From a virus (taxonomy: Duplodnaviria; Caudoviricetes), in the IMG/VR virus record IMGVR_UViG_3300009370_000001: 64,000 nucleotides of DNA. One strand, given 5' to 3'. The notes below the pieces were generated by a model. The model had not been told where the DNA came from, did no database searches, and saw only the letters and a program-made list of their open reading frames with translations. Of this stretch, positions 13,371 through 63,691 are shown in pieces; position 1 is the stretch's first letter, and each line of letters starts with the position of its first letter. The translations under genes and the position numbers were made by a program.

Positions 13371-13669
13371 AAAATCAAGATTTAGATACTTTGATAAACG
13401 AAGCGTTAGGTAACATTCGAGATGATCGAAAATCGGCCAAAGAATTTTTAAATGAGATTGCTACTCAGATTGCCAAGGATCCCGAACAAAACAAGTATCT
13501 AAGTCCAGTTGCCGCAAAACACGTTGAAACAATGCAGCGCTCCAATGAACAGCTTGTGAAGATTATTGGGTTGAGACAGAAAACTCATACACAGCTAGAT
13601 ATTCTCTCCGACAAAGACAAAGACAGTATTTTTGATATGTTGCAGGGAGATATCGAAGATGCCGTTTAA
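13367..13669 (+). CDS. Hypothetical protein (100 aa, helical)
   Basis: Intact ORF with ATGA coupling to the sigma gene; no recognisable motif. Confidence 0.7.
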   Translation: MKNQDLDTLINEALGNIRDDRKSAKEFLNEIATQIAKDPEQNKYLSPVAAKHVETMQRSNEQLVKIIGLRQKTHTQLDILSDKDKDSIFDMLQGDIEDAV

Positions 13670-14834: not shown

Positions 14835-14851
14835 AACACAAAAAGTAAATT

Positions 14852-15838: not shown

Positions 15839-15852
15839 GTATTAGAGATAGA

Positions 15853-35300: not shown

Positions 35301-37475
35301 AAATTAGAATCAGATATTATTGCTGATAAGCTTAAATTTGAGAGCGGGAGCGTGTATGCAGCGCGCATTAAACTTAAGAGATCCTATATCGGCGCACGTA
35401 CATATGAAAATGAAATCGATTCCGGCGGGTTTACCTTTGCTGCTAATGGAACCCAAGGCCGATGGCGCCTCTTTGGCGGCGCCGGCCAAGAGATTGATGA
35501 TCTACCATATCCTTCCGGTGCTTATTTTCCTGTGCCTCAAGATCCAACTCGACAAGACGGCTTTAGAGAGAGTTTCACCCTTTACAGTCGACCAACTGCC
35601 TTTGGCCCGCCAATAGCCGCTTTGCGCAAGACAGGATCAAATGCGCATGTTCCCAATGATACCACGGTTGCGCAACTCGAAACCGCGATTAGCGAACAAA
35701 CGGGTAATTACCCTCACGATTCTATTAATGGGTTTAACTGGGCGTTTACTCCCCCTTACTATGATGGAGAATCATGGGCAGATGTTATTTTCCGACCTGA
35801 TTCCACTAAAGAATATAGTGTCCAAGATATCTTAGCCGATTCTAAAGTACGCTACTGGCGCCATGACGCCGGAGGTCCCCATGGCGCGGATTCGTTAGGC
35901 TTCGTGGGAAACCTTTCCGGAGCTTATATTGGTTTGTCCCGCGGTATTTATGATGGAGAAAATATTAACCGTAATGCGATGCAAATATCTGCTAGTATTA
36001 ATTTGTTTGGATTTGAACAAGTGCCATTTACCGAAAGAGATGCTTTCGGGAACGTGGCAACTACCCGTGACACCACGACAGGAACTCGATGGGTTCTCCA
36101 ACCTAAATTTGAAACCCCGCACTTAAACTTTAATGATGCTTATAACCAAGCACAAGTACCTATTTATGGTTCCGCTTCTGTGCCAATTGGGATTTGGCAC
36201 CAATTTGGCAAAATCCCCACAAATCCAGAGGTAGGAATTTTCTTAGAGATTGACGATATACCAGAACAATGGCAAAAATATCACTATGATATGTTTTATT
36301 ATGACAGCATCTATAATGATAATAATGCGGCCTCTTTTGTGGCGGGCAAAACACCATTTAGATCATTGACTGATGTTTTTGGATTCAAGTCCAATAGTAA
36401 ATCTAAACGTCTAGGAGAATTGGCCGATTCGCAAACACTTAGAGAGGCTATTGTGGCTATCCCATATTATACGGAACAAACCCCTGGTGATTATAGTTTG
36501 ACTACCGAGAAGACCGCCCGAACCCAGTATACTAAAAAATTCATTAGTATTCCCAAGGAAAGAATACAAGCCGCAGCCGAAGAGCAAGTGGGTTCTCTAG
36601 AAGGAGATTCTTTGGACACTGCGGGGTCTTCGATTAGAAAGCTTTTACAGAAGATGGATCGCTACGTCCTTCCTCCGCAATTTGATTTTAAATCTAATAA
36701 AAACATTGATCCTATTGCTATGTATATTATAGAATTTGAATATAAACTAGACAAAGACGATTTGTCCTATATTTGGCAAAATATGGCACCGAGAGATTAT
36801 AAGAAGCTTTCATTCCAGAAATCATCTGTAGCCCACGAATTGATGGACACAGAATTATTATCGGGGCATAATATTCTTGAGAGCGAAAATTTACGCTGGA
36901 TGGTGTTTAAGGTTAAACAAAAATCGCAAGCCTTTTATGATGATTCTGTGGTCGCACAAATCGGACAGACAACTAGAGACGCCTTTATTCAGCAACGCCG
37001 AAGAACCGAGCAAGGCTATAATCTAAATTACAACTGGCCTTATGACTATGTATCTTTTGTTGAGATGGTTAAAGTAAACGCCAAGGTGCTTTATGGCGGC
37101 CGCAGCACCGGTGTTCAAGGAGAACGAGTGCCTGCTGGTCAAAACGAACGTGTTCCTGTCTTAGAAACGCCAGCGCGCGAAGGGTCGCGAACTCTTCCGA
37201 GAGCGGCAGCAATAAATGAACAAGTAGCGGAAAGAGTACGAGCCCTCCCCCGGAGAGCACGACGCCGCGCCGCCCGCGGAGCCAGAGGCCGCCAAGCGAC
37301 TCTTCCGCTTGCCGATCAACAAACACGAGCAACTGCTCGTCGCCAGGGGCGCCGGCGTAACAACACTAATACCACACGCCGCGCAACTAATCCGACTCGC
37401 ACGCGAAGAACTCGCCGCGGCAGAGGCGGTGGCGGTAATCGCGGCGGAGGTGGCCGCGGCGGCGGAGGTTATTAA
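26292..37475 (+). CDS. Giant baseplate/tail protein (3727 aa) with two LamG/concanavalin-A-like domains and an Arg/Gly-rich C-terminus
   Basis: LamG-like motifs SIEFWLK...WTHVALV...LYING...MDEFRFW (about 26880-27440) and WNHVAVTWD...FFVNG...MDEVSIW (about 30960-31590); located in the baseplate operon. Confidence 0.7.
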   Translation: MSIKKLFGSVEDGRNYLSDTDQKEAFKDVESERNLEQLKEKQSNFVPQVDYSDPRFFARFGSAYYYYKGAMERITDYYPYDGSDAEINGFYNKLLDVEKYIFNNLYPRTNGYVELGEATTTSLSKLSGGYATPTTKEYITLKGGPNAIDSAGSLVKASNNPYSDKFQYSNVYDTSIYTTAGLPSDYGVGTRQSNLQCNFDTGVSIEFWLKKPTFGTCPETVFDLWTSGSQSGSVDYGRITVELTGASGVSPFLLTVQSGSAVSIEPGMTAAGIFQQSIGSGITAASLDTWTHVALVMYNTGSDFASKLYINGGLNDTYVTGSTTINQLKQKDTFARIGALLTAPSGAAATADSAVADYDGINKLSASMDEFRFWKEKRSGEDIGRYWFSQVRGGTNTDISNTTLGVYYKFNEGITETSSVDSNVLDYAGRITNGVWTGYGTNSRSTGSAMIESSASAQEYKDPIIYSSHSSVSNLKSELLATGSYHDAQNNSMFRNYAPSWIIEEAEQLGNNNLDVVSHIVGTYFDRVHLLSQQVPKLRGINYTSASSEPVPFAQHLPQSLGLYTPEIFIDANVMERFLNRNNDMLFENDLDETKNLIYLNLYNNLANIFKSKGTERSLRNVLRCFNIDEQIVKINTYAKNTTFPLSNNYEQVIEKVSYANFDKKENRTAVIYQRADSTNPNSRGYIPTGSKPGSEGGTEYANYEMQYGCTIEGQIMFPHWSVDYSDNQRDYTTVSLFGGITPYTSSADGLTGADTSANYPDYTNFQVQAIKTGPNSKDVYFKLTSSAPAYGVPEQFPTLTSSVFSNVYDNTTWNLSVRVKPKLDGPITTVSGASVTQYDVIFEGINIDLGTIENSFTVGGVVSAATGSASDFLTRPKRLYVGAQRTNLTGPVVHKSDVLVGSLRYWAKALNTGSLSQHAHDIDNYGISGSYQSVAAIDTANKSADVLNLNTLALNWAFNQLSSSNSTGVFVVPDISSGSTSLATDYGPMGTITGYQHNGYGYDFPNSSTDAIEKRLTNTFKFISPERATSADAIQILSEDDKVFGITETVPNYVYTVEKSMYRAVSEEMLDFFAGVVDFNNVIGAPVNRYRGRYKSLEKLREIFFRKVTKTSQVEKFVEYYKWFDDAIGHIMAQMVPASSDFVADVYNTVESHVLERNKYQTKYPSLETKQNHPEAQMEGVGGLGITYKNYSSPVPASPRNTNQNIQYWLKKAKRSEPEITSGNPTIDTQRENMRQIINTAPRASTKPGELMTSGIAGSGTKYFQDFYPQRNYQKLYKLKSYDADASIHGGVNFSKDQNIQYTYNSLYPFGPVSTEENRFIPLNVLVGLTSDLVSIQDFEDDRELRRKVKRVFKVQSARRWYQDEGYSDVKSSMAFPFNIMSSSLNSGYNKEVQTKVGANIEITNLHNDTYGQAMGTPMQGPFTEKYVGGHQSRHITYNSGATDTYLTRPEAWKLLLGQCADQGSGAIGMASPTYPYPDIGAPPSSAYGRIDFTSNPITDNSVTISDGDTSLTFTIPFMNTYATHHADQVRSYIVIGGDNSSSYGNPTLAEPQYFDIDAGTYSCWISGSIPMTGNGNLIIMGVNHATFNFSLIDDGSTPPGSSPASKLRLTQQWLNGASAGSTVNSYWTTDNKEVPLGQWNHVAVTWDATTTGSTEPVFFVNGVQVDSSRDGSAVPTAAGSTLRLALKARSGLPSGNPKVTCLIGGYNASNAISGAMDEVSIWQLSMSADQISELYATGSVTDLMQHSVYTSNNSNLRAWYRMGDDPNDAIDGTGVYDLGTNSIVDQTGRYNGTPGEDMTVDFATNVITSSATGDNIAWTRGGNTNATAVNLTTAINAQSFNIVASNPEGDAETITVSNTKYGVPTSTKKEARGSLGNVSLSRVGSRISVEGMQGGSDPQIINFNAPRATYYREELAKRPVNIRNIQMTTGSTIIGNYQNNYEVVSTVGAFANPRDFIENQPTLPSVITTKTNLNRGGANRFTGRTGQAVLNYLTLDRASGSHYDFELDYGITDNSGSYANKSVIITRFGAPGSRETMARGYQDFKSSEFSAYNATPYRNLSVLNAGQSNEIDAQTKVGGFGYIVNDLHNRPFGLNQHLTRHTARFGRDDMAVTGTTFATDGPGASYNQLPGFHKVHRNVKRRLETIGDGSQVTASVYDNWYVRHQIPRSDMQYTWITASLVSNNDHFGYLPASYEVSTSAGYTEPYNFVSASDFGIYQYTGFGGGLWRLGATKKMVQNYYTIGVDADFLPLDFAGMNTIIYDHFSASSNVLGLRSPESVYDYNLYDPPQTRFYFNTTVITNAGLINPGIPGWLWGAPIPKGAFDARAFNLLNLHRNGPYGWPIFKQIDYNNPLTRYERRNNQISILMADSGAYGTDFKTFDLSPVSMRAHPGKINFDNNSQDMTIVASHNNARIFFKEAELNDLVNINYSDIVTPFEQMLDVTTMGDRYSTNWIMYSQQLYPSERNEFESYITKRTGYNNKFWRSTQAQRIDQAQGDGVPPLRGGTLIPNSWGCPWLAPLPDQRAAAGMYGGNYIQLTQSSWPLDPVKDFLTRPQATRHPRLGAGSPASYREGGIKFRNSGSGELQNQYIMPAFRPSYLAYVVGVGDFGSPGALYSRKQTLGSYKSVVSPYGIVLPSTGALSSALDPREQIETFAGEAVWDCPTYAGINIQTGSTFTFQSQSSDPWFSDYETFQYDLKLAAKDYSIVPEFRISEHIADFKKYGLFGAHNSDIFEIPGTGINSAKSSSFYRDYSNSEFMKGFLNIKEDSGILPREIEIECEAAIRFNPYKGFYPVQRSLDLVSQWSSSYADGITVTVDGDGTTSMGPTIGSSSFGQKLLTDMGLYIRPMIAPLFAPGILYNSIKSGMAVDYPVVTDDTKILRWPFFSASIDTSGVADTIKGPEKRDTWALTINPNTLKVSANDTNGYDGKSFFDKRLPFETMIKPEGQIDGMQFIDMESNISCSALTTASFASPAVDDNYTLMASNYFAEIGNFFLKDSHYTKLESDIIADKLKFESGSVYAARIKLKRSYIGARTYENEIDSGGFTFAANGTQGRWRLFGGAGQEIDDLPYPSGAYFPVPQDPTRQDGFRESFTLYSRPTAFGPPIAALRKTGSNAHVPNDTTVAQLETAISEQTGNYPHDSINGFNWAFTPPYYDGESWADVIFRPDSTKEYSVQDILADSKVRYWRHDAGGPHGADSLGFVGNLSGAYIGLSRGIYDGENINRNAMQISASINLFGFEQVPFTERDAFGNVATTRDTTTGTRWVLQPKFETPHLNFNDAYNQAQVPIYGSASVPIGIWHQFGKIPTNPEVGIFLEIDDIPEQWQKYHYDMFYYDSIYNDNNAASFVAGKTPFRSLTDVFGFKSNSKSKRLGELADSQTLREAIVAIPYYTEQTPGDYSLTTEKTARTQYTKKFISIPKERIQAAAEEQVGSLEGDSLDTAGSSIRKLLQKMDRYVLPPQFDFKSNKNIDPIAMYIIEFEYKLDKDDLSYIWQNMAPRDYKKLSFQKSSVAHELMDTELLSGHNILESENLRWMVFKVKQKSQAFYDDSVVAQIGQTTRDAFIQQRRRTEQGYNLNYNWPYDYVSFVEMVKVNAKVLYGGRSTGVQGERVPAGQNERVPVLETPAREGSRTLPRAAAINEQVAERVRALPRRARRRAARGARGRQATLPLADQQTRATARRQGRRRNNTNTTRRATNPTRTRRTRRGRGGGGNRGGGGRGGGGY

Positions 37476-53140: not shown

Positions 53141-53169
53141 TTGACATTTACAGATAGATCGCTTATAAT
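53141..53169 (+). promoter_or_regulatory. Consensus sigma70 promoter
   Basis: TTGACA (53141-53146), 17-bp spacer, TATAAT (53164-53169). Confidence 0.9.
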
Positions 53170-53445: not shown

Positions 53446-54020
53446 ACGAAGAAAACGACTTTAGACTTGTGAGAGCTTTCCCGCTCCTTTATGCAGATAG
53501 GGGCGGCTCTAAGCAATCAACGCTCATGTGTTGGGGCTTCTCGTGCGGCGATGGCTGGTTTGATCTTATCTGGGATCTCTCAGAGAAGCTTGAGCCGATC
53601 ATCAAGAAGTTTGTTGATGAAAATCCAAACCTTGAATGTTCGAATTGCGGCTGCAAGAAAGACAGACACTATGCTTGCAAGACCCGCAATCCCGGCAGGT
53701 GCCTATCGGTTCACGTCGATCCGGATTCAGATGAGGAGCCCCCTGGCAACTATTATGCTTGCTTCTGTGATAGTTATGTGTCAAGTCATCCAAGGGCTGT
53801 TCAGGTGAAAGAGAAGTTCGGATCGCTTAGGTTCTATATGACATCAGAAAACGACGAGATCCGCAGCCTAATCGGCGAAGCCGAAGCAAAATCGTGTGAA
53901 ACCTGCGAGGAATGCGGAGATCCCGGCAAAGAAAGAGACACAAGTTGGATCCGAACGCTCTGCGACGGATGCTATGAGAATTGGGAGCAGATCCGAGCAG
54001 CGAGATGGAGCAAAGAATGA
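53442..54020 (+). CDS. Cys-rich hypothetical phage protein
   Basis: FSCGDGWFDLI...VQVKEKFGSLRFY...TCEECG...TLCDGC; ATGA coupling. Confidence 0.7.
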   Translation: MNEENDFRLVRAFPLLYADRGGSKQSTLMCWGFSCGDGWFDLIWDLSEKLEPIIKKFVDENPNLECSNCGCKKDRHYACKTRNPGRCLSVHVDPDSDEEPPGNYYACFCDSYVSSHPRAVQVKEKFGSLRFYMTSENDEIRSLIGEAEAKSCETCEECGDPGKERDTSWIRTLCDGCYENWEQIRAARWSKE

Positions 54021-54574: not shown

Positions 54575-55633
54575 ATGAAAGTAACCAAATCAAAACTAAA
54601 GCAGATTATTAATGAAGAACTGGGACAAGAACTCCAAGAACTTTATATCCCTTTTATTGGCGGGAAACTTCCCGAGAAAGAATATGCAATCCGTAGGAAG
54701 CAGTTGGACGCCATTGGCGATATGGCAAATGACCTAAGCGCGGAAGAGGAAGAACAATTCTTAAGGTACGCGAGCCGGTTGGTAGCACCCAAGGAGGAAG
54801 GGGAAGGCTTTGTCCTGCTGAGCGACAGGATAGAAGCTGGTCTTCTAGGACAATTGTTTCAACAACTGAGGCGCCTTCTGTATGACCGTCACCCTAAACA
54901 TAAAGCACAGAGTCTTATGAACCGTTTTGATCAAAACGCAGATCGGTTGTCCAAAGAGTTGGGCGGACTAGCCCAAGAAATAGCCGATCAGAAAGCTGAT
55001 GCTGCGGCAAGAGAAAAGGCCGCCCGGGAAGAAAGGTATGAGAGGGAACAACGAGAAGAAGAAGAAGAAAAAGCAAGAGCGCGAAATAGGAGAGACGCAG
55101 AAGAAGCCCGTTCGGCGCAGGAGTACCTGAGTATGTCCGATGCAGAACGTACTCGACTGCGCAAGCGGTCAGGATCGTCGTCCCACCGCGTTAACCCCGG
55201 CTTTGCAGGCTCAGGAAACATGGGCTATGGAGAATCACTCGATAGGAGAATCCCAATGAAAGTAACCAAAGCACAACTTCAAGAGATCATCCTTGAAGAG
55301 CTTACAATCGCTTTAGACGAGCTTGGCGCTGGCAAAGGCGCCGGCATGAGCCTGCGCGCTGCCCAACTCGGTGGAACCGGACACGGCAAGCGCGATGAAG
55401 ACGAAGAATACGTCGATCCCGAAGTCGATCCTTATGAGAAAGCGCTGGAAGCTCCGTTGGCCGAAGAAGAGGATGACGAGTGGATTCAAGACGCAGAGAA
55501 AGATATTAAAAAGCGCGGCACCGAGGGTGTCTGCACTGGGGATAAATTTGGTGGTCCCACATGCAAGCCTGGAACGAAACGATACAACTTAGCAAAGACG
55601 TTCCGGAAGATGGCGAAAGACCGCAAAAAATAA
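54575..55633 (+). CDS. Leader-motif protein (352 aa) with an internal second leader and a C-terminal Cys-containing module
   Basis: Starts MKVTKSKLKQIINEEL after AGGAGA; second MKVTKAQLQEIILEEL in frame at 55256. Confidence 0.75.
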   Translation: MKVTKSKLKQIINEELGQELQELYIPFIGGKLPEKEYAIRRKQLDAIGDMANDLSAEEEEQFLRYASRLVAPKEEGEGFVLLSDRIEAGLLGQLFQQLRRLLYDRHPKHKAQSLMNRFDQNADRLSKELGGLAQEIADQKADAAAREKAAREERYEREQREEEEEKARARNRRDAEEARSAQEYLSMSDAERTRLRKRSGSSSHRVNPGFAGSGNMGYGESLDRRIPMKVTKAQLQEIILEELTIALDELGAGKGAGMSLRAAQLGGTGHGKRDEDEEYVDPEVDPYEKALEAPLAEEEDDEWIQDAEKDIKKRGTEGVCTGDKFGGPTCKPGTKRYNLAKTFRKMAKDRKK

Positions 55634-55637
55634 AAGC

Positions 55638-55666
55638 TTGACTCTTGCTTGACAATGAGTTATACT
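55638..55666 (+). promoter_or_regulatory. Sigma70-like promoter upstream of the Mre11-Rad50 fusion
   Basis: TTGACT (55638-55643), 17-bp spacer, TATACT (55661-55666); GGAGG Shine-Dalgarno at 55683-55687. Confidence 0.75.
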
Positions 55667-55691
55667 ATAAGAGTATCTATGCGGAGGGTAC

Positions 55692-58600
55692 GTGAAGTTT
55701 GCACATATAAGTGATACTCATATCAAAAATCTGAAGTATCATTATGAATATCGAGTCATTTTTGAGCAGTTGTATGAAACGCTGCGGGAACAAAAAGTCG
55801 ATTACATTATACACTGTGGGGATATAGCCCACACCAAGACCCAGATCTCACCAGAGTTTGTTGAGATGTGTTCTGATTTTTTTCGCAGTCTCGCTGAGAT
55901 TGCACCAACCTATATCATTCTAGGAAACCATGACGGCAACCTAAAGAACAGCAGTCGTCAAGACGCACTGACACCGATTGTCGACGCGCTCAATCTGCCG
56001 ACACTGCACTTGCTTAAAGATTCAGGCGAGACTCATTTGAACGACGATTTCTGTTTGAATGTCTTGTCTGTTTTTGATCGAGACAACTGGATGAAGCCCA
56101 CCAATACTGACAAGATCAATATTGCACTTTATCATGGCTCAATCTCTAATTGTAAAACTGATACCAATTGGACGATGAGTTTTGGTGAAGATGATATATC
56201 TATCTTTGACGATTTTGATTTTTCTATGCTTGGTGATATTCACCGTCGCCAATTCCTAGATCACGATGGACGCGTTTGGTATGCTGGCTCAACTGTTCAG
56301 CAGAACCATGGCGAGACCAACGACAAAGGTATTCTCATTTGGGATATCAAATCTAAAGACGAATGGGACATTGAGCCGATTGTGTTTAAAAACCCTAAGC
56401 CGTTCTTTACAATCCCGCTCACACTCAAGGGGCGGATGCCTCGCAATCTCCAAGTACCCACTGGCGCACGCCTGCGATTGGTTAGTAACAATAACCTTCC
56501 GCTTAACACGATGCGCCGAGCAATGGACATTGCGAAGCATCGCTTTAAGCCCGAGAGCATCTCGTTTCTCAACAGAGCAGCAGGCGAGCGCGGTAATGTA
56601 GAAGATCTAACTGACGGTATTAAGACAGAAAACCTGCGAGACATTAAAGTCCAAGAAGAACTGATTGACGAGTTCCTTTCAGATTACCAGACCGATGCCA
56701 CAACCCTAGAGCGCGTGTTTGAGCTTAACAGCAAGTACAACAAGATTATCGAGGACCGAGAAGAGATCTCTAGAAACGTAAACTGGAGAATCAAGTCGTT
56801 TAAATGGGACAATCTGTTTAATTACGGAAAGGATAACTCCATCGACTTTGAAAACCTTAACGGCATCATTGGCGTTTTTGGAAAGAACTTCAGCGGCAAA
56901 TCTAGCATCATTGATGCGGCCCTGTATACATTGTTCAACACCACCTCAAAGAACGAGCGCAAAAACCTCAACGTTATTAATCAACATCAAGAATCTTGCG
57001 AAGGCGTTTTAGAGATCGAGATCGGACACAAAGTCTACAACATTAAGCGCACCTCTGAAAAATATACGAAACGCTTGAAAGGTGTTGAGACCTTAGAAGC
57101 CAAAACAGATTTGAACTTCGAAGTCTATGACCCTGTCACAGACGAGACAACATCCTTAAACGGCACCACACGCAATCAGACGGACGCAAATATTCGAAAG
57201 CACTTCGGGTCCATGGATGATTTTATGGTGTCTTCTCTGGCAAGCCAGCACGGTGCATTGGGATTCATTGATGAGGGTTCGACACGTCGAAAGGAAATCA
57301 TCGCCAAGTTCCTCGATTTGGAGCTGTTTGACCAAAAGTTTAAGATGGCCAAAGACGACTCTGTTGAGGCCAAGGCTCTCCTGCGCAAGTATGAGGATCG
57401 GGATTACAACACTGAGGTGCAGGCATTAGAAACCAGCTTGGAAGACTTGACTGTACAAGCGGAAACTAATCGCACAACTTGCGAGGATTATCGTAAAGAA
57501 CTTAAACTTCTGAACGAAGGAGCGAGACGCTTAGACGAGAAGATCAATTCTATTCCTGGCAAGCTTATTGACATCACAAAAGTCATGACAGAGCAAAAAG
57601 ATAAGCAAGTGTTGTCGAAGTTGTTGGAGGAGAAGATAACAAGCCAAACAGCACTGGCACTTGTCAAGCAGCAGAAAGTGGCAATATCAGAGAGCTTATT
57701 AGAGCTTATCGATCATGCCACCCTCACAGCCGACAAAGCAGAAATTGATACTTTAGATCATAGTATTATGAATCTTCGAGAAGAGATTGAAAAGATTGGC
57801 AAAAAGGAAAAGCTTTTGAAGAGTATCCCCTGCGGCGATTCTTATCCTTCGTGTCGATTTATCAAAGATGCCTATATTGACGTAGCTAACAAGCCAGGAA
57901 TTGAAGCAGACCTTCACGCGGCCGCTATGCGTTTAGAAACGTTGTCTCCTGACGACACAGCCGAAAAGCTTGAAGAGTATCGTTTAACGCAAGAACTGAT
58001 TGTAGAACTAAAGGCGGAAGTTGCCGCGCTGCAATTAGAATGCGAACGTAATAAGAACACAAAGGCCACAACTGATCAAGAATTGATCACTCTCACCACC
58101 AAGGTCGCTGAATATAAGCAAAACAAAAAGGTTATTGATGGACTTGAAAAAGTCATCAAAGAACGACAAGGTTACCAAACTAAGATCGAGACTAAAAAAG
58201 AAAAGATTGAAATCTGTGATAACGAGACATTAGAGATTGTACGACAGGTGGGTTCCTATGAAGAGAAGATTGAATCTCTCAAGGCTCAAAGTAAGGAGTA
58301 TCAAGACCTTCAGAATAGTTATGCGGCATACGATTTGCTTATGCAATGCATGCACCCTAACGGAATCGCTTACGATATTATCAAGAAAAAGATTCCAGTC
58401 ATTAACCAGGAGATTGCAAAAGTTCTCGCCAACATTGTTGAGTTCGAAGTGTTTTTTGAGACCAGCGGAAACAAGCTTGACATCTTTATTAAGCATCCTA
58501 AGCACGACGAACGGCCCATTGAAATGGCGTCAGGTGCAGAAAAGACAATGGCCGCGATGGCAATTCGTTTGGCTCTTTTAAGTGTTTCTTCACTTCCAAA

Positions 58601-58799
58601 GTCGGACTTGTTTATCCTCGATGAGCCGGGCACCGCATTGGACGAAGAAAATATGGAGGGTTTTATTAGGATCTTGGAACTAATTAAGGTATATTTTAAG
58701 AACGTTCTCTTGATCTCGCATTTAGACTCTCTCAAAGATTGCGTCGACATGCAGATTGTAATAGAAAAGAAAAAAGGCTACGCAAAGGTAAACCAATAA
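55692..58799 (+). CDS. Fused Mre11/SbcD nuclease - Rad50/SbcC ATPase (gp47-gp46-like)
   Basis: Phosphoesterase motifs HISDTH, CGDIAH, GNHD, YHG and GDIH; Walker A GKNFSGKSS; coiled coil; signature ASGAEK; Walker B ILDEPGTALD; H-loop ISH; GTG start. Confidence 0.92.
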   Translation: MKFAHISDTHIKNLKYHYEYRVIFEQLYETLREQKVDYIIHCGDIAHTKTQISPEFVEMCSDFFRSLAEIAPTYIILGNHDGNLKNSSRQDALTPIVDALNLPTLHLLKDSGETHLNDDFCLNVLSVFDRDNWMKPTNTDKINIALYHGSISNCKTDTNWTMSFGEDDISIFDDFDFSMLGDIHRRQFLDHDGRVWYAGSTVQQNHGETNDKGILIWDIKSKDEWDIEPIVFKNPKPFFTIPLTLKGRMPRNLQVPTGARLRLVSNNNLPLNTMRRAMDIAKHRFKPESISFLNRAAGERGNVEDLTDGIKTENLRDIKVQEELIDEFLSDYQTDATTLERVFELNSKYNKIIEDREEISRNVNWRIKSFKWDNLFNYGKDNSIDFENLNGIIGVFGKNFSGKSSIIDAALYTLFNTTSKNERKNLNVINQHQESCEGVLEIEIGHKVYNIKRTSEKYTKRLKGVETLEAKTDLNFEVYDPVTDETTSLNGTTRNQTDANIRKHFGSMDDFMVSSLASQHGALGFIDEGSTRRKEIIAKFLDLELFDQKFKMAKDDSVEAKALLRKYEDRDYNTEVQALETSLEDLTVQAETNRTTCEDYRKELKLLNEGARRLDEKINSIPGKLIDITKVMTEQKDKQVLSKLLEEKITSQTALALVKQQKVAISESLLELIDHATLTADKAEIDTLDHSIMNLREEIEKIGKKEKLLKSIPCGDSYPSCRFIKDAYIDVANKPGIEADLHAAAMRLETLSPDDTAEKLEEYRLTQELIVELKAEVAALQLECERNKNTKATTDQELITLTTKVAEYKQNKKVIDGLEKVIKERQGYQTKIETKKEKIEICDNETLEIVRQVGSYEEKIESLKAQSKEYQDLQNSYAAYDLLMQCMHPNGIAYDIIKKKIPVINQEIAKVLANIVEFEVFFETSGNKLDIFIKHPKHDERPIEMASGAEKTMAAMAIRLALLSVSSLPKSDLFILDEPGTALDEENMEGFIRILELIKVYFKNVLLISHLDSLKDCVDMQIVIEKKKGYAKVNQ

Positions 58800-59707
58800 T
58801 GAAATTATTAATGGAAAATTGGCGAAAATTTGTCAATGAAACTGAAGAAAATCTTCACGAACTGGATAAGGGCGCGCTTTATGCGTTAAATAATCCAGGC
58901 ACTCCCTTGGCAACTTACGTCGCGGTACTTAAGAAATATGCGAATGATCCAGAATTTGATAAGATCGCCGGCGCAGGCCAAGCCGATGGCCAGCCGGCCG
59001 ATGAGGTGGCTAAGGTGCAGCCGGGCGCTATAGCTGCACAAGATCTCACAGCGACCCAAGCAGAAATTGGATTTGGAAATAGTCTGGCTGATCAGGTAGC
59101 TAATAAATACGACGCCACTAAAACTGCTCTTGGACTAAACGGATCTCCAATTGTTATGGCTTCGAAGTCAGGTCCAGTTCCAATTTTAGTATACAATGGA
59201 AAATATATTTTAGACGGGCATCACCGGTGGTCACAAATTATGATGGTCAATCCAGGTGGTACTGTTAAGGTCGACAATTTAACTGGACCCGCTATCGACA
59301 ATGAAGAAGAGGCTCTTAAGGTTATGCAATTCGCCATCGCTGCGACTGCTGACAAAGTAGTGACAAAGCCATTTGAGGGTGAAAATTTAATGCAAGCAAA
59401 CGAGCAACAAGTAGCGAACTTTGTTCTTAAAAATGTTACTGATGAAGTCTTGCAGCTTTTAGTTCAGGCTGAGAAGATTGAAAAACCAGATAAACGCCTC
59501 GCTGCCCAATATATTGCTGGTAATCTGCCGGTCATTAAGAAGTCTGCCGGCCGGTTCTCTCGCGAGAAAAGTATGCCTCAAGCCGGCGACTCTGGCGTTT
59601 CACAGGATGCGGTTAATCAAGCGCTTGGCACAGGCAAGGTTAACTTTGATAGCCCCAAGCCGGCCGACGCATATGGGAACCGCCCAGAGAAAAAAGCCGC
59701 AGAATAA
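58799..59707 (+). CDS. ParB/Sulfiredoxin-like domain protein with an N-terminal MKLLMENWRKF leader
   Basis: LTATQ, PILV...YILDGHHRWSQ motif; the true start is probably ATG 58799 (TAATG overlap). Confidence 0.7.
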   Translation: MKLLMENWRKFVNETEENLHELDKGALYALNNPGTPLATYVAVLKKYANDPEFDKIAGAGQADGQPADEVAKVQPGAIAAQDLTATQAEIGFGNSLADQVANKYDATKTALGLNGSPIVMASKSGPVPILVYNGKYILDGHHRWSQIMMVNPGGTVKVDNLTGPAIDNEEEALKVMQFAIAATADKVVTKPFEGENLMQANEQQVANFVLKNVTDEVLQLLVQAEKIEKPDKRLAAQYIAGNLPVIKKSAGRFSREKSMPQAGDSGVSQDAVNQALGTGKVNFDSPKPADAYGNRPEKKAAE

Positions 59708-59722
59708 TAAACGGAGATTATA

Positions 59723-60850
59723 ATGAACAACCCTGACGATTTTGATTTTGCCGAGACAGCAACGGAAACCAATCCGCCTGCTCTCGAAACCCCTAAAACT
59801 AGTGAGTTCGACGACTTTGATTTCGTCGATCACTATGGAGACGATGAAGAAGTAACCCACGAGAATTTGCTTCCGGAGAACACTGTTCCCGCATCACTGA
59901 ACTGTGCCATTGTTGGCGTAGGTGGAGGTGGGGGCAAGATGGCCAAAGCCTTTCTCGATCTTGGCTACAACAGGACTCTGCTTGTTAATACCACTGCTAA
60001 AGATATCCCTGACGCTGTGGGTGATGAGCATGTGGTTTTGATTCCCGATGCCGATGGCATTGGAAAAGATGTGAATTTAGGAAAAGCTGTGTTTGATGCA
60101 AACAGTACAGTCGTAGAAGATGCCCTCCGCACAAAATTAGGCAAAGTTGACTGGCTGTTCGTTTGCGCTGGAGGTGGCGGTGGAACTGGTTCTGCCGTCG
60201 CTTCTCTACACAGCGTCTTTGAGCGCTACCTTAAGTCGGTACAAGCCGAAGGCGAGGTAGTATACATTACGTCGTGGCCGACCGCACAAGAATGCTTGAA
60301 TCCAACAATTAGCAAGAATGCGTTAGCTTTACTTAATGATGTTTCCCAGCACACTCACATCGTTTTGGACAACGAACGCCAAGTTAAATTGTTGCGCGGA
60401 AAGGTGGGGATGCTGAATCTGTTTCCTTCTGCCAACACGGCGTTTGCAAAGTTAATGACTCAAATTCTCAAACTCTCCAGCGATAAATCGCCGATTCAAT
60501 CGTTTGATACCAAAGATCTAGAAAGATGTTTGCGAACCCCACAAAGAATGTTTATTGGATCGACAATGGTAAAAGATCCCGCTACGCCAAACCTAGGCGC
60601 TACGATTCTTCAGAATTGTATGAAGCGTTCTCCGTGTCCCGCCCCCAAAGGTAAGCCCCAAACCGGCGCATTATTATTGATTGCGTCGTCTGAGATGGCA
60701 AACGATCCAGAGATTAGCAAACACATGGATGCAGCGATTGGATATGTTGGCGGCAGAACAGACACACTTTTTTCAGGTGTTTATATTAATGATAATGTAC
60801 CTGGGCTCGTTGCCATACTATGTATGAATGGGCTACCCAAAGGAAAATAA
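59723..60850 (+). CDS. FtsZ/tubulin-family GTPase
   Basis: IVGVGGGGGK, LVNT, DGIGKD, signature AGGGGGTGS, LDNE, and T7-loop-like SFDTKDL; CGGAG Shine-Dalgarno. Confidence 0.9.
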   Translation: MNNPDDFDFAETATETNPPALETPKTSEFDDFDFVDHYGDDEEVTHENLLPENTVPASLNCAIVGVGGGGGKMAKAFLDLGYNRTLLVNTTAKDIPDAVGDEHVVLIPDADGIGKDVNLGKAVFDANSTVVEDALRTKLGKVDWLFVCAGGGGGTGSAVASLHSVFERYLKSVQAEGEVVYITSWPTAQECLNPTISKNALALLNDVSQHTHIVLDNERQVKLLRGKVGMLNLFPSANTAFAKLMTQILKLSSDKSPIQSFDTKDLERCLRTPQRMFIGSTMVKDPATPNLGATILQNCMKRSPCPAPKGKPQTGALLLIASSEMANDPEISKHMDAAIGYVGGRTDTLFSGVYINDNVPGLVAILCMNGLPKGK

Positions 60851-60853
60851 TAA

Positions 60854-61015
60854 ATGAGTACACCACGAGATTTAGCGCGAGATACATGGGCAAGAACGAA
60901 GCAGCTTGTTTTGCTTAACGGCGCATTAGAAGATTATGTCCTGCTCGCCGTTACGAAAGTAACGTGTTTGGCTATCGGACTTGCCGCTGGCTGGCACATG
61001 TGGGGAGGAGTATAA
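60854..61015 (+). CDS. Small membrane protein (53 aa), not in ORF track
   Basis: Translated by hand as MSTPRDLARDTWARTKQLVLL...CLAIGLAAGWHMWGGV; fills the gap exactly and abuts the next ATG. Confidence 0.6.
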   Translation: MSTPRDLARDTWARTKQLVLLNGALEDYVLLAVTKVTCLAIGLAAGWHMWGGV

Positions 61016-61360
61016 ATGAAAATCACCAAATCCCAATTGATGCAGATTATTAAAGAAGAAACATCTAGCTTAAACGAAATGCCGTATCGGCAAGGGGGTC
61101 GCCACGCCGGCTACGACGCCAATTGGCGCCGCACGTTTGGTGAGCCAGATCCCTCTCAAAAAGATACGGAAGCACAAGCCATTGCAGACATGGATGTGGG
61201 AATTGCGCGAGAGTTTGCGCAAGACGTTGTAGAATTTGTACGCCAGAATGTAGCTTCTGAGCAGGCACCAGCCCTGGCAGAAATGTCGATGGGGGACTTT
61301 TTGAGACTAGCTGCTGATTTAGCAGGCGATGAGCCGCTGGTAACACAAGTCGGAGAATAA
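61016..61360 (+). CDS. Leader-motif protein (114 aa)
   Basis: Starts MKITKSQLMQIIKEETSSLNE; GGAGG Shine-Dalgarno. Confidence 0.75.
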   Translation: MKITKSQLMQIIKEETSSLNEMPYRQGGRHAGYDANWRRTFGEPDPSQKDTEAQAIADMDVGIAREFAQDVVEFVRQNVASEQAPALAEMSMGDFLRLAADLAGDEPLVTQVGE

Positions 61361-61361
61361 G

Positions 61362-61598
61362 ATGAAAGTAACCAAGTCCCAATTGATGCAGATCATCAAA
61401 GAGGAGATTACGAATATGAATCGTGGACTTCGAGAGTTTGCAGAATGGGTGATGGAAGTAAATGGACATATTGAAAGCTTGTCTGACGAATATGTATCGG
61501 CAGACGAATTGGCCACCGACGTTAATCTGTATGATTTATGGTACCAGGGAATCCCGGCTGCCGCGGCTGCGCAAGATCTTATAAGCGGTGACTATTGA
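61362..61598 (+). CDS. Leader-motif protein (78 aa)
   Basis: Starts MKVTKSQLMQIIKEEI; CGGAG Shine-Dalgarno. Confidence 0.75.
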   Translation: MKVTKSQLMQIIKEEITNMNRGLREFAEWVMEVNGHIESLSDEYVSADELATDVNLYDLWYQGIPAAAAAQDLISGDY

Positions 61599-61732
61599 TG
61601 AAGCTTTGGAATAAACTAAATCACTGGCTCGACTGGCGCGGCATTAAGTGGACCGACATTATCGGCTCGGGTGTAGCGTTTGGAACAATCATCGGACTAG
61701 TTATAGTATTAACCTGGGCAGGATTGCAATGA
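61598..61732 (+). CDS. Small membrane protein (44 aa), not in ORF track
   Basis: MKLWNKLNHWLDWRGIKWTDIIGSGVAFGTIIGLVIVLTWAGLQ; TGATG and ATGA couplings on its two sides. Confidence 0.6.
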   Translation: MKLWNKLNHWLDWRGIKWTDIIGSGVAFGTIIGLVIVLTWAGLQ

Positions 61733-61926
61733 GAGAAAGGCTTCGAAGGTTATGGAGTGTAGACGTGCTGGCTGTAGGGCTGGCATTACTTGCTTTGGCA
61801 TACGCGTGCTGTGTGCACCATCGAGCCCAAGAAAGATTGAATGAAATTGAAGGCGTGGTTAACGAAGGAATTCATATTCCGACACAGCCAACTCCACCAG
61901 TGAGGTTCGAACCAGAATGTCAATAA
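61729..61926 (+). CDS. Small membrane-anchored protein with a Pro-rich tail (65 aa)
   Basis: MRERLRRLWSVDVLAVGLALLALAYACC...IPTQPTPP; ATG 61729 overlaps the upstream stop. Confidence 0.55.
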   Translation: MRERLRRLWSVDVLAVGLALLALAYACCVHHRAQERLNEIEGVVNEGIHIPTQPTPPVRFEPECQ

Positions 61927-62921
61927 AGATTACAAAAAAGAAACTGATGGAAACTGTGGAGAAGGAAATGAAAAATGTCCTTCTAGAGACATATTTGCGC
62001 ATCCACCTTTCACAAGTTTTAACAGAGCGAACTGAGGGAATGTCGACTGCTAAAATTGAGGCGCTGCTCTCATCTGTGATTGACAATTTGGAGGGTATCG
62101 ATATGAGTATCGATTACCTCACTTCAGCGATAACTGGTCATGATCCATATTCTTTGGGGATCGCACAGAAGGTGGCCGGCCGCGGCGGCGGACGCTTCTC
62201 TCCTGTTCCATCCCCTCCGGAACAAGTCTCTGAAGCGGAAGAATTGTCGGAACTAAACCCTAATAAAACATTGGACCAACAAGAGCCCGAGGACTTTGAA
62301 GAGCCCGAGGAAGATCCTGACGCTTTAAGGTCCGATACAGTTTTAGGGGCCACCGGAAAATGGCCTGAAGAGCCTTCTGAGCCAGCGCAACAACGGCCTC
62401 CTCGTGAATATCGAAGTAAGGCCATTGAACTTTTGGCTTCGTTTCATGTAAATGTTGATCAGCAAGCTATAGATGCAGTGGCGTGGCAACTATACCACAA
62501 TGCCATGGGCGCCCCCACGCAGGCGATGGAAGAACCCCCGAAGAAACGAAAAAGATTTAAGTTTTTTGAAAACGTAGGAAAACGCCCTAATGCTGAGCTA
62601 CTAGCTTTATTGCGAACAATGTTGAAAACTGCCGAAGATCCTTATGCAGATGAACAACGACTCCTATCTTTAGGAGGTGAATTAGAAGACATGCTCGGCC
62701 AATTGGCGCCGGCAGCCGAGTGGGCCCAAGAGCAGGGCTATGACCGGCCTACATATAGTGAAAACCTACAGCAGTATATTAGAGAAGAACTCGAAGCTTA
62801 TTTGGAAGAAGAGGAAAAGAATAATCCTTGGGCCATATGCACTAGTTCTGTCGGCAGAGAAGATAAAGAAAAATATGAGAAATGCGTAAAAAGCATAAAA
62901 GCACAAAATAGAGGAAAATAA
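61917..62921 (+). CDS. Acidic leader-motif protein (334 aa) with a C-terminal NPWAICT module
   Basis: N-terminal IKITKKKLMETVEKEM; internal LQQYIREELEAYLEE; C-terminal NPWAICTSSVGREDKEKYEKCV. Confidence 0.7.
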   Translation: MSIKITKKKLMETVEKEMKNVLLETYLRIHLSQVLTERTEGMSTAKIEALLSSVIDNLEGIDMSIDYLTSAITGHDPYSLGIAQKVAGRGGGRFSPVPSPPEQVSEAEELSELNPNKTLDQQEPEDFEEPEEDPDALRSDTVLGATGKWPEEPSEPAQQRPPREYRSKAIELLASFHVNVDQQAIDAVAWQLYHNAMGAPTQAMEEPPKKRKRFKFFENVGKRPNAELLALLRTMLKTAEDPYADEQRLLSLGGELEDMLGQLAPAAEWAQEQGYDRPTYSENLQQYIREELEAYLEEEEKNNPWAICTSSVGREDKEKYEKCVKSIKAQNRGK

Positions 62922-62922
62922 A

Positions 62923-63114
62923 ATGAGTGTATTAAGTAACTTATGGAATAGCACCGTCACAGCCGCAGGTCACGTATGGAGCGTTGCCCTGGATTTAGGA
63001 TGGTCAGTATGGCACGAAGTCAAAGATGGCATTAGTCGTTTAAGCTGGTGGTTATTGGTCGGATTGGTCTGGCTCGATGGACTAGCAGTAGGCTGGTGGC
63101 TGTGGAGTAGCTAG
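62923..63114 (+). CDS. Small Trp-rich membrane protein
   Basis: C-terminal hydrophobic LSWWLLVGLVWLDGLAVGWWLW; GAGG Shine-Dalgarno. Confidence 0.6.
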   Translation: MSVLSNLWNSTVTAAGHVWSVALDLGWSVWHEVKDGISRLSWWLLVGLVWLDGLAVGWWLWSS

Positions 63115-63308
63115 TGGCTGAGCATAAAGGATTTTTAGATACGTGGTTGTTAAAGCTTACTTCTCGTAAGTTATTGGTATGGATAACTGCGTCTGCATTA
63201 GCCTTTACCGGGTATTTGACGAGCGGTGATTGGGTAGTTATTAGTACCGTCTTCATTGGCACCCAAGGTGCCGTCGACATTGTTGAGAGATTCAAGGGAC
63301 GCAAGTGA
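63114..63308 (+). CDS. Putative holin
   Basis: 64 aa; SRK followed by two hydrophobic segments and a basic C-terminus (RFKGRK). Confidence 0.55.
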   Translation: MAEHKGFLDTWLLKLTSRKLLVWITASALAFTGYLTSGDWVVISTVFIGTQGAVDIVERFKGRK

Positions 63309-63691
63309 CACCACAACAACTGATCATCCAGTTCTTAGTAAAGAATTGGAAAGGAGTATTGATCGTTCTTTTGTCTGGCGTAGTGATGGGCAAAATGCGC
63401 TATGACTATAAGCAGATGCAAGCGGCATACGAGGCTTCAGAACAATCTCTGCAAGCTCAGATTGCTGGACTGCAAGAGATCCACAAGAAGCAAATGGCGG
63501 ATATGGAAGAATCACTACAGGTCTACAAAGATACCTTAGATCAAGTAGAACAAGATTACCAAGAGAGCCAAGAAGAATTGCTCGAAGAGATCGAGAACCG
63601 TAGAGAAGAATACGGAAGACAATTCTCTCAAGACCCAGAAGAACTAGCGGAGACTATAATGTTAATGTACGGATTTAATTATGTTCCTTAG
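63305..63691 (+). CDS. Putative i-spanin (Rz-like)
   Basis: N-terminal transmembrane helix followed by a long coiled coil; follows the holin-like gene. Confidence 0.5.
   Translation: MTPQQLIIQFLVKNWKGVLIVLLSGVVMGKMRYDYKQMQAAYEASEQSLQAQIAGLQEIHKKQMADMEESLQVYKDTLDQVEQDYQESQEELLEEIENRREEYGRQFSQDPEELAETIMLMYGFNYVP

What the first reader, a model, noticed from the sequence alone, without database searches (positions are those of the whole stretch)
54575..62921. Shared N-terminal leader on otherwise unrelated proteins: candidate capsid-targeting/cargo-loading system
Seen: MKVTKSKLKQIINEEL (54575), MKVTKAQLQEIILEEL (55256), MKITKSQLMQIIKEE (61016), MKVTKSQLMQIIKEE (61362) and IKITKKKLMETVEKEM (61917), plus an internal LQQYIREELEAYLEE near 62770. 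A second leader type, MKLLMENWRKFVNE, starts 58799. The 61016 and 61362 leaders are 38/45 nt identical, yet the sequences after the leaders share nothing obvious. In most, an L-x-E follows the leader (ELQE, ALDE, SLNE, VLLE, NLHE). Established: T4 internal proteins carry a short capsid-targeting N-terminus that prohead protease gp21 removes after (I/L)-x-E. Inference: this is a modular address tag that loads diverse cargo into the head for ejection into the host.
Basis: partly seen in the sequence, partly recalled or inferred. Interest (0 to 1): 0.85.

Follow-up and report, generated by a model that had tools for sequence, protein, structure and literature searches.

The report
Swappable head-loading tags on phage proteins
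An abundant group of uncultured marine T4-like phages puts one of two interchangeable 14-16-residue N-terminal tags, each ending in the cutting motif of the phage's head protease, on hundreds of unrelated proteins, most likely to load them into the capsid as T4 does with its three internal proteins.

Summary
The window holds four full copies of the tag MK[IV]TKxxLxxIIxEE (T1), one degenerate copy, one remnant, and one copy of a second tag, MKLLMENWRKFVNE (T2). In IMG/VR contigs I collected 402 distinct T1 proteins (276 cargo clusters) and 246 T2 proteins (110 clusters). Both tags are N-terminal and conserved at the protein level, not the codon level. Both keep hydrophobic residues at 8, 11 and 12 and Glu at 14, so most copies end in [LI]-x-E. 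Homologous cargo carries T1 in one phage and T2 in another, so the tags are modular.

The genome is a complete 203-kb T4-like phage with a gp21-type prohead protease. Its capsid protein keeps L-x-E at the T4 maturation site. Tagged genes cluster beside terminase, portal and protease. Outside the tags, [LI]-x-E is specifically depleted in cargo (window: 2 seen, 10.3 expected, P = 0.0006) but not in untagged proteins.

Best reading (about 0.6): a T4-type capsid-targeting and processing tag, greatly expanded. Packaging, cleavage and ejection are untested. Two window ORFs are in-frame fusions of tagged units. The scan noted similar tag systems before on other DNA. Novelty: a new variant of a known kind.

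The parts
54575..55633 (+). 352-aa ORF made of two T1-tagged units fused in frame: unit A is residues 1-227, unit B is residues 228-352.
   Evidence: Unit B is a stand-alone 80-85-aa gene in L006, and in G006 it lies directly after the protease. The same fusion is present in L054.
54575..54622 (+). T1 leader copy 1, MKVTKSKLKQIINEEL, with I-N-E at residues 12-14.
   Evidence: 37 bits. GGAGAG lies upstream.
55256..55303 (+). T1 leader copy 2, internal at the fusion junction, with its own AGGAGA ribosome-binding site.
   Evidence: 31 bits.
55481..55630 (+). Conserved two-Cys basic C-terminal module (WIQ...CTGDKFGGPTC...).
   Evidence: 84-86% identical at the C-terminus of otherwise different proteins in L009-L012, L075, L169 and L201.
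58799..59707 (+). T2-tagged 302-aa protein. The leader is residues 1-14 (58799-58840). The cargo is a ParB/sulfiredoxin-like fold with a DGHHR motif.
   Evidence: AF2 mean pLDDT 91: leader helix 2-14, disordered linker 14-19, folded domain from residue 24. ParB-N chains are the top Foldseek hits (prob 0.95, E 6.6e-3). Pfam ParBc_2 E 0.069.
61016..61360 (+). T1-tagged 114-aa protein; cargo unknown.
   Evidence: 42 bits. The cargo orthologue in L005/L041 has a different N-terminus.
61362..61598 (+). T1-tagged 78-aa helical protein.
   Evidence: 43 bits. Orthologues carry a 25-28-residue insert (25 in L054, 28 in L005) between leader and cargo. AF2 pLDDT 82.
61917..62921 (+). 334-aa ORF made of three tagged units fused in frame: A is residues 1-105, B is about 106-283, C is 284-334.
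   Evidence: A and B are separate adjacent genes in L006/L007/L054. B has a canonical T1 leader in L004/L008/L068. C equals stand-alone 62-71-aa genes in L028 and L014.
61923..61970 (+). Degenerate T1 leader of unit A (IKITKKKLMETVEKEM).
   Evidence: loose pattern only; it is absent from the G000 hits of the leader HMM search. Homologous cargo in L020, L021 and L082 has a canonical T1 leader.
62238..62267 (+). Junction A/B, EELSELNPNK. Most of the unit B leader is lost, but L-S-E is kept before LNP.
   Evidence: Orthologues read L-T-E, L-A-E or L-S-E before LNP at residues 20-22.
62766..62810 (+). Leader remnant of unit C (LQQYIREELEAYLEE), with I-R-E.
62820..62918 (+). Conserved C-terminal module NNPWAICT...C...
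   Evidence: 81-90% identical at the C-terminus of different T1 proteins (L192, L141, L117, L028).

Best explanation
T1 (consensus MKITKSQLKQIIKEEL) and T2 (consensus MKLL[LFM]ENWRK[YF][LIV][NK]E) are two interchangeable propeptides of the T4 capsid-targeting type.

Proposed mechanism:
1. The amphipathic N-terminal helix docks the protein onto the scaffolding core while the prohead assembles. This step is inferred.
2. The gp21-type prohead protease then cuts after Glu14 of [LI]12-x-E14, and often again at a second L-x-E about 8 residues later. This frees the cargo inside the head. This step is inferred.
3. In-frame fusions of tagged units, as in the 54575 and 61917 ORFs, would be cut back into their units at the retained junction sites. 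This step is inferred.
4. Cargo that stays intact in the head is probably delivered with the DNA. This is the least certain step.

What is shown: the tags are modular, N-terminal and selected at the protein level. They occur in phages with a T4-type protease. They cluster by the head genes. Their cargo avoids the protease motif.
For: 1. Modularity.
- There are 402 T1 and 246 T2 proteins, falling into 276 and 110 cargo clusters.
- Homologous cargo carries either tag. L071 (T1) and L230 (T2) are 56% identical, E 9e-70.
- Orthologues of the 58799 cargo show T2, extended T2 or T1-like N-termini.

2. Protein-level selection. Leu8 uses all six codons and Thr4 all four, across 411 distinct leader DNAs.

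3. Shared register. Residues 8, 11 and 12 are hydrophobic and residue 14 is Glu in 97% of T1 and 76% of T2, against a background of 0.3-0.4% per position. T4 ipII and ipIII start MKTYQEFIAE, which has the same spacing: Y4, F7, I8, E10. In T4, residues 4 and 7 govern targeting and residues 8 and 10 govern processing (PMC9026906).

4. Protease.
- Peptidase_S77 lies at G000 123445-123900, E 3e-31.
- It is present in 8 of 10 other tag-bearing records. The two without it are about 20% complete.
- The T4 gp23 cut site (LTE|A) aligns with LLRE|N here, and the Glu is invariant in the alignment.

5. Position.
- In 120 loci found by the tag alone, the commonest neighbours are terminase (53 loci), portal (51) and protease (25).
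- Tagged genes directly flank the protease in G008 and G006.
- In G000 a T2-like ORF precedes the protease, and a conserved T1-like ORF family (the 139-aa ORF at G000 125047) follows it.

6. Motif avoidance.
- Cluster-weighted observed/expected for [LI]xE is 0.85 (0.75-0.95) in T1 cargo and 0.93 (0.83-1.03) in T2 cargo, against 1.24 (1.14-1.34) in untagged neighbours.
- In the same cargo, [LI]xD, [LI]xK and Ex[LI] stand at 1.2-1.4.
- In the window's tagged cargo, 2 sites are seen against 10.3 expected (P = 0.0006). Untagged window proteins show 52 against 45.

7. Structure. The T2 leader is a detached helix joined by a flexible linker to a confident fold.
Against: - There are no virion proteomics and no cleavage or packaging data. 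The nearest cultured phage (Flavobacterium phage immuto, capsid protein 45% identical) has only weak tag-like N-termini.
- There is no significant sequence similarity to the T4 tag, only a shared pattern.
- T1 cargo is acidic (median pI 4.9), unlike T4's basic internal proteins.
- About 24% of T2 copies lack the full pattern. The window's own T2 copy has V-N-E at residues 12-14.
- The co-fold of scaffold, protease and a T1 protein gave no answer.
- The link to T4-type proteases could reflect shared ancestry of one clade rather than function.
- The segment boundaries used for the window depletion test were chosen after seeing where the sites lie.
Confidence: 0.6

Rival explanations
1. The tags are co-assembly helices of accessory prohead-core (scaffold) proteins, like T4 gp67 and gp68. 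These are built into the core and then degraded and expelled. They are not cargo kept for delivery.
For: T1 proteins are small and acidic, like T4 gp67. Tag-like N-termini occur on conserved ORFs flanking the protease. T4 gp67 contains the segment IDLIKEEK.
Against: T4 core proteins are cut at many sites (PMC9026906). Tagged cargo here is instead depleted in [LI]xE, which fits survival rather than degradation. T2 cargo consists of folded enzymes: NUDIX, GNAT, kinases, HAD and a ParB-like fold. The hundreds of fast-changing cargo families do not fit a structural role.
Confidence: 0.17
2. The tags are recognition sequences for another machine. Candidates are a modifying enzyme (RiPP-like), a chaperone or protease, or the phage's tubulin-like cytoskeleton. 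On this reading they have nothing to do with the capsid.
For: A conserved tubulin/FtsZ gene lies within the T1 cluster.
Against: The complete genome has no radical-SAM gene. No enzyme family is enriched beside tagged genes, whereas head genes are. This reading explains neither the fixed [LI]xE end of the tag nor the avoidance of [LI]xE in cargo.
Confidence: 0.1
3. The tag is a generic N-terminal oligomerisation helix, or a translation or recombination cassette kept for expression or gene shuffling, with no sorting role.
For: The leader DNA is locally near-identical (38/45 nt in the window; identical 30 nt in T4 ipII and ipIII). That could drive the recombination and fusions seen.
Against: The amino acids are conserved while codons vary freely. 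Two unrelated sequences share one hydrophobic register and a terminal Glu. Cargo avoids the motif. A recombination role is compatible with the main reading and does not replace it.
Confidence: 0.08

Closest known systems
Capsid targeting sequence (CTS) of phage T4 internal proteins IPI, IPII and IPIII, and the Alt propeptide, removed by prohead protease gp21 (Mullaney & Black 1996, from my own knowledge; reviews PMC9026906 and PMC3012670)
   Same: It is a short N-terminal propeptide on otherwise unrelated proteins. It ends in L/I-x-E. Hydrophobic residues sit at P7, P4 and P3 relative to the Glu. The genome encodes a gp21-family protease. The leader DNA is locally conserved. T4 IPII and IPIII also have no internal [LI]xE.
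   Different: The tags here are 14-16 residues rather than 10. There is no detectable sequence homology to the T4 tag. Two leader classes are used interchangeably. There are hundreds of cargo families rather than a handful. T1 cargo is acidic. Tagged units occur as in-frame fusions. Function is untested.
Polymorphic internal-protein loci of T-even phages with CTS-like leaders (cited in PMC9026906 section 3.1 and in PMC3012670)
   Same: The cargo is hypervariable behind a conserved leader, and the loci are arranged as clusters.
   Different: Those loci belong to close T4 relatives and hold few genes. This is a distant marine clade whose capsid protein is about 31-45% identical to those of cultured phages.
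Propeptide-bearing ejection and inner-body proteins of phiKZ-like and SPN3US giant phages, cut at S/A-x-E by a gp21 homologue (PMC9026906, PMC5694885)
   Same: Many head-internal proteins are processed after Glu by a T4-related protease.
   Different: Those propeptides are long and are not a shared portable tag. The cleavage motif also differs.
Similar leader-tag systems noted earlier by this scan on other DNA (e1-3862018, e1-1066390, e1-5335776)
   Same: Uncultured T4-type phages carry a short shared N-terminal tag ending in [LI]-x-E on many unrelated ORFs.
   Different: The tag sequences differ. I did not test those cases.

Membership tests
T4-type capsid targeting sequence / internal proteins | A short propeptide at the extreme N-terminus of otherwise unrelated proteins | tested here: met
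   94% of T1 copies start with Met and the median open frame upstream is 9.5 residues. 93% of T2 copies have 30 or fewer open residues upstream. Cargo falls into 276 and 110 clusters.
T4-type capsid targeting sequence / internal proteins | The propeptide ends in the gp21 cleavage motif L/I-x-E | tested here: met
   [LI]xE at residues 12-14 in 95% of T1 and 72% of T2. The background rate is 1.2% per position.
T4-type capsid targeting sequence / internal proteins | The genome encodes a gp21-family (Peptidase_S77) prohead protease with L-x-E specificity | tested here: met
   The protease is present (phrog_207, 9e-54). Its specificity is only inferred, from L-R-E at the site aligned with the T4 gp23 cut.
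T4-type capsid targeting sequence / internal proteins | Sequence homology to the T4 tag MKTYQEFIAE | tested here: inconclusive
   Only the pattern MK...hydrophobic-x-x-hydrophobic-hydrophobic-x-E is shared. The peptides are too short for statistics.
T4-type capsid targeting sequence / internal proteins | The propeptide is removed in the prohead and the mature protein is present in virions | not testable with these tools
   No cultured member and no proteome is available. The indirect evidence is [LI]xE avoidance in cargo.
T4-type capsid targeting sequence / internal proteins | The leader binds the scaffolding core | tested here: inconclusive
   The co-fold of the gp22 homologue, the protease and a T1 protein scored 0.00, which the tool reports as 'no answer'.
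T4-type capsid targeting sequence / internal proteins | The cargo is a small basic DNA-associated protein (IPI-III) | tested here: not met
   T1 cargo has a median pI of 4.9, and only 13% is above pI 9. T2 cargo consists of enzymes, closer to T4 Alt.
RiPP-like leader with a dedicated maturase (radical SAM/SPASM) | A maturase is encoded with or near the tagged genes | tested here: not met
   The complete genome has no PF04055 match. No enzyme family is enriched among the neighbours.
T4 prohead core proteins gp67/gp68 | The protein is encoded between portal and protease and cut at several internal sites | tested here: inconclusive
   Tag-like ORFs do flank the protease. PHROGs finds no family for them. 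Tagged cargo is poor in internal sites.

The most novel reading that the evidence does not exclude
Abundant marine T4-like phages run a large, programmable protein-injection system. Two leader classes share one docking register and load hundreds of fast-evolving proteins into the head. T1 mostly carries small acidic proteins, possibly DNA mimics or anti-defence factors. T2 mostly carries enzymes such as NUDIX, GNAT, kinase and ParB-like proteins. Adjacent tagged genes can fuse into polyproteins that the prohead protease cuts back into units at the retained L-x-E junctions. The tag would then give a sequence-only catalogue of what these phages inject.
Probability: 0.3. Interest if true: 0.85.

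Novelty: new variant of a known kind. Interest (0 to 1): 0.68.

Why it matters
If the tags work as T4's does, a 14-residue motif lists the proteins that a very abundant group of ocean phages carries in its capsid and probably delivers first into the host. More than 8000 protease homologues share words with this one. The list covers hundreds of families with no known function, plus NUDIX, acetyltransferase, kinase and ParB-like enzymes. That would make the question of which proteins uncultured phages inject directly testable. It would offer new packaging tags for phage engineering. It would also extend the T4 capsid-targeting principle from three proteins in one model phage to a general, modular system. 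The specific avoidance of the protease motif in cargo is a sequence-only signature that could be used to find such systems elsewhere.

Tried and rejected
- Megablast and tblastn of the region, of a T1 protein and of a 24-aa leader against 50,697 phage records found no match.
- Pfam and PHROGs on the window's T1 proteins gave nothing. The ESM Atlas gave only viral 'hypothetical protein' clusters.
- A full-text search for the motif strings found no relevant paper. A search for the capsid targeting sequence in marine T4-like phages found only T4 reviews. PMC1524935 does not mention internal proteins.
- Complex prediction with the gp22 homologue, the protease and the 78-aa T1 protein scored 0.00, reported as 'no answer'. 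This is not evidence either way.
- A search for the T4 late-promoter motif TATAAATA found no site near the tagged genes. The sigma-70 and terminator scan did not settle expression timing.
- The idea that the tag belongs to one folded domain is rejected, because cargo is unrelated and the T2 leader is a detached helix.
- The idea of DNA-level conservation only is rejected.
- The radical-SAM maturase idea is rejected for this genome.
- The tag in cellular genomes: only 18 stretches in 596 Gb of genome contigs, all in metagenome bins. Three of the five multi-copy bins hold a T4-type protease, so they are binned phage contigs.
Full report
CONTEXT
The window is bases 52192-116191 of a complete 203,204-bp IMG/VR virus record with direct terminal repeats and 43.6% G+C. 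It is a distant T4-like phage. A Peptidase_S77 (gp21) prohead protease lies at G000 123445-123900 (E 3e-31; phrog_207, 9e-54). A Gp23 capsid protein lies at 134213-136003. Terminase, portal and a gp22-like scaffold lie in T4 order. The nearest cultured capsid proteins are those of Flavobacterium phage immuto (45% identity), Microcystis phage Mel-JY01 and Rhodothermus phage RM378. The finding's region (window 54.5-63 kb) lies between the replication and recombination genes and the lysis, terminase and head genes. The replication side holds a primase and a fused SbcD-SbcC gene at 55692-58799. The head side starts about 1 kb beyond the window.

OBSERVATION
A strict pattern finds the T1 motif only at 54575, 55256, 61016 and 61362 in the whole genome. 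A looser pattern adds 61923. All five are preceded by a GGAG-type ribosome-binding site, including the copy at 55256 that is internal to the ORF. The T2 motif at 58799 is one of about ten in the genome. The others cluster at G000 12.9-28.1 kb.

HOW WIDESPREAD
Using the SbcCD fusion as bait, I fetched 78 related IMG/VR loci (41-94% identity). They hold 109 pattern hits and 176 leader-HMM hits, all on the coding strand. A pattern for T2 hit 117. In all I collected 402 distinct T1 proteins and 246 distinct T2 proteins. The 5.8-billion-protein collection holds hundreds more T1 proteins, all unnamed marine metagenome proteins. In 596 Gb of prokaryotic genomes the T1 pattern occurs only 18 times, always in metagenome bins. 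Three of the five multi-copy bins carry a T4-type protease, so they are binned phage contigs.

ANATOMY OF THE TAGS
- T1 has the consensus MKITKSQLKQIIKEEL. Information content is high through residue 16 and then collapses.
- T2 has the consensus MKLL[LFM]ENWRK[YF][LIV][NK]E. Its information content collapses after residue 14.
- Both are N-terminal. 94% of T1 copies start with Met, and the median open frame upstream is 7-10 residues.
- Conservation is at the protein level. Across 411 distinct leader DNAs, Leu8 uses all six codons and Thr4 all four.
- The two tags share no residues beyond MK, but they share one register. Residues 8, 11 and 12 are hydrophobic and residue 14 is Glu in 97% of T1 and 76% of T2. 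The background is 0.3-0.4% per position.
- [LI]-x-E therefore sits at residues 12-14 in 95% of T1 and 72% of T2.
- A second [LI]-x-E follows at residues 20-22 in 24% of T1.
- T4 ipII and ipIII begin MKTYQEFIAE (verified). Counted back from the Glu, this has the same spacing: Y at P7, F at P4, I at P3.
- The T4 review assigns targeting to residues 4 and 7 and processing to residues 8 and 10 (PMC9026906).
- This is a resemblance, not homology.

MODULARITY
Cargo behind the tags is unrelated: 276 T1 clusters and 110 T2 clusters at blastp E below 1e-3. Only 3 of the 45 largest T1 cargo proteins have a Pfam domain (DnaJ and two DUFs). T2 cargo includes NUDIX, GNAT, P-loop/zeta-type kinases, a protein kinase, HAD, nucleotidyltransferase and phosphodiesterase domains, and PGDYG in this genome.

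Homologous cargo carries different tags in different phages.
- L071 (T1) and L230 (T2) are 56% identical over the whole cargo, E 9e-70.
- L101 (T1) matches L296 and L188 (T2) at 38-40% over 160-168 residues.
- L129 (T1) matches this genome's own T2 protein at 35% over 194 residues.
- L167 (T1) matches L273 (T2), with the switch exactly at the end of the leader (all).
- Orthologues of the 58799 protein (47-90% identical) start with T2, with T2 after a short extension, or with T1-like sequences.
- The 61016 cargo has an orthologue without any T1 leader.
- Orthologues of the 61362 protein have a 25-28-residue insert (25 in L054, 28 in L005) between leader and cargo.
- The AF2 model of the 58799 protein (mean pLDDT 91) shows the leader as a helix (residues 2-14) on a disordered linker (14-19), ahead of a confident fold. 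The nearest solved folds are ParB N-domains, which fits its DGHHR motif.

FUSIONS
The internal copies are fusion junctions.
- Residues 228-352 of the 54575 ORF are a stand-alone 80-85-aa T1 gene in L006. In G006 that gene lies directly behind the protease.
- The 61917 ORF joins three units that are separate genes elsewhere.
- Unit A (residues 1-105) is a separate gene in L006, L007 and L054.
- Unit B is separate with its own T1 leader in L004, L008 and L068. Here only ...EELSE|LNPNK survives at the junction, which keeps the L-x-E.
- Unit C (residues 284-334) consists of the remnant LQQYIREELEAYLEE plus a conserved NNPWAICT module. It equals the 62-71-aa genes of L028 and L014.
- In the window's five tagged proteins, all but two [LI]-x-E sites lie in a leader, just behind one, or at a junction.

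LINK TO THE HEAD AND ITS PROTEASE
(a) Peptidase_S77 is present in 8 of 10 other tag-bearing viral records, including all that are at least 57% complete. The two without it are about 20% complete.
(b) In the 120 loci found by the T1 pattern alone, the commonest neighbour families are the large terminase (53 loci), portal (51), two small ORFs upstream of terminase (42 and 39), spanin-like proteins (38), SbcCD (26) and the protease (25). No modifying enzyme is enriched.
(c) Canonical T1 genes directly flank the protease in G008 and G006. In G000 the ORF before the protease starts MKLLLEHWNRYLQEE (T2-like). The ORF after it contains WRTFLNE. A conserved ORF family downstream starts MKKSDLKQLIKP... 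(T1-like).
(d) The T4 gp23 maturation site (FLTE|A) aligns with LLRE|N here and with L-[RK]-E in the marine relatives (V-S-E in immuto). The Glu is invariant in the alignment. The L-x-E specificity is therefore probably conserved.

MOTIF AVOIDANCE
If tagged proteins meet an L/I-x-E protease and must survive it, they should avoid the motif. They do.
- Cluster-weighted observed/expected for [LI]xE beyond residue 30 is 0.85 (95% CI 0.75-0.95) in T1 cargo and 0.93 (0.83-1.03) in T2 cargo.
- In untagged conserved proteins of the same loci it is 1.24 (1.14-1.34).
- In the same cargo, [LI]xD, [LI]xK, [LI]xQ and Ex[LI] stand at 1.14-1.41.
- In the window, tagged cargo (971 residues) has 2 sites against 10.3 expected (P = 0.0006). 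The sibling motifs are not depleted.
- Ten untagged window proteins have 52 sites against 45 expected.
- T4 IPII and IPIII likewise have no site beyond the tag (too small a sample to test).
- The window segment boundaries were set after seeing the sites. The family-wide test used a fixed cut at residue 30.

WHAT IS NOT SHOWN
Packaging, cleavage and ejection are all inferred. The co-fold of scaffold, protease and a T1 protein gave no answer. T1 cargo is acidic (median pI 4.9), unlike T4's basic internal proteins. It may act differently, for example as DNA mimics or core fillers. No cultured close relative exists. Flavobacterium phage immuto has only tag-like N-termini, MKKSQLRQIIKEAL on gene 190 and MKKSQIVKAVQEVLEE near its protease.

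RIVALS
- A core-only (gp67/gp68-like) role fits the acidity and the position. It does not fit the motif avoidance, the enzyme cargo or the diversity.
It fails here: there is no radical-SAM gene and no enriched enzyme.
- A purely nucleic-acid role fails on codon variation. Leader-mediated recombination nevertheless probably explains the fusions and swaps.

NOVELTY
The principle is known: a T4 capsid-targeting tag and hypervariable internal proteins (PMC3012670, PMC9026906). The following are not in the papers I could search:
- the two interchangeable leader classes with a common register;
- the scale, with hundreds of cargo families in an abundant marine clade;
- the in-frame fusions;
- the motif-avoidance signature.
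This scan has noted similar tag systems on other DNA, and the T2 tag elsewhere in this same genome. Verdict: a new variant of a known kind. Confidence is about 0.6 for capsid targeting plus processing, and lower (about 0.4) for delivery into the host.

Noticed in passing
window 59723-60850 (+): A tubulin/FtsZ-family gene (Pfam Tubulin 2e-8; weak PhuZ PHROG hit) sits inside the T1 gene cluster. It is conserved at 60-94% identity across the clade. In G001 and G005 it lies just upstream of the head module. No phage-nucleus genes were looked for.
   Followed up: partly
window 55692-58799 (+): SbcD (Mre11-like phosphoesterase) and SbcC (Rad50-like ATPase) are fused in one 1035-aa ORF, conserved in all 78 related loci. 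T4 keeps gp47 and gp46 separate. Such fusions are discussed in PMC3175470.
   Followed up: no
window 62820-62918 and 55481-55630 (+): Two short, strongly conserved two-Cys basic C-terminal modules (NNPWAICT...C... and WIQ...CTGDKFGGPTC...) recur at 81-90% identity at the C-termini of otherwise different T1 proteins. They are also found as minimal 'leader + module' genes of 62-85 aa. Their function is unknown; they may be a second sorting or anchoring element.
   Followed up: partly
window 53141-53169 (+): A perfect sigma-70 consensus promoter (TTGACA, 17 nt, TATAAT) lies upstream of the 89-aa ORF at 53176. None of the 13 TATAAATA (T4 late-promoter motif) matches in the window lies near the tagged genes.
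   Followed up: no
window 62923-63691 (+): A run of small membrane ORFs is followed by an Rz-like spanin (phrog_1152, 4e-6). This is probably the lysis cassette, lying between the tagged genes and the terminase.
   Followed up: no
window 15853-22551 and 26292-37475 (+): Two giant ORFs of 2232 and 3727 aa lie in the tail and baseplate region. They were not examined.
   Followed up: no
G000 20059 (L211 about 9050) and G000 13362-15962 (L211 2362-4962): A T2 leader stub (MKLLLENWRGL, then a stop) lies directly before a LamG-domain gene. An 866-aa ORF ends in a T2-like segment (...LKRWKQNF). These look like footprints of leader-mediated rearrangement.
   Followed up: no
L219 (Microcystis phage Mel-JY01, record 53614-53643): A T1-like segment (MKITREQLKEKIRIIVKRVLNE) lies at the extreme C-terminus of a 432-aa open frame in a cultured cyanophage. 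It is either a small unannotated gene read in frame or a fusion.
   Followed up: no
L206 14511-16421 and 16483-18366 (G002): One 242-kb relative carries two tandem copies of the major capsid protein gene.
   Followed up: no
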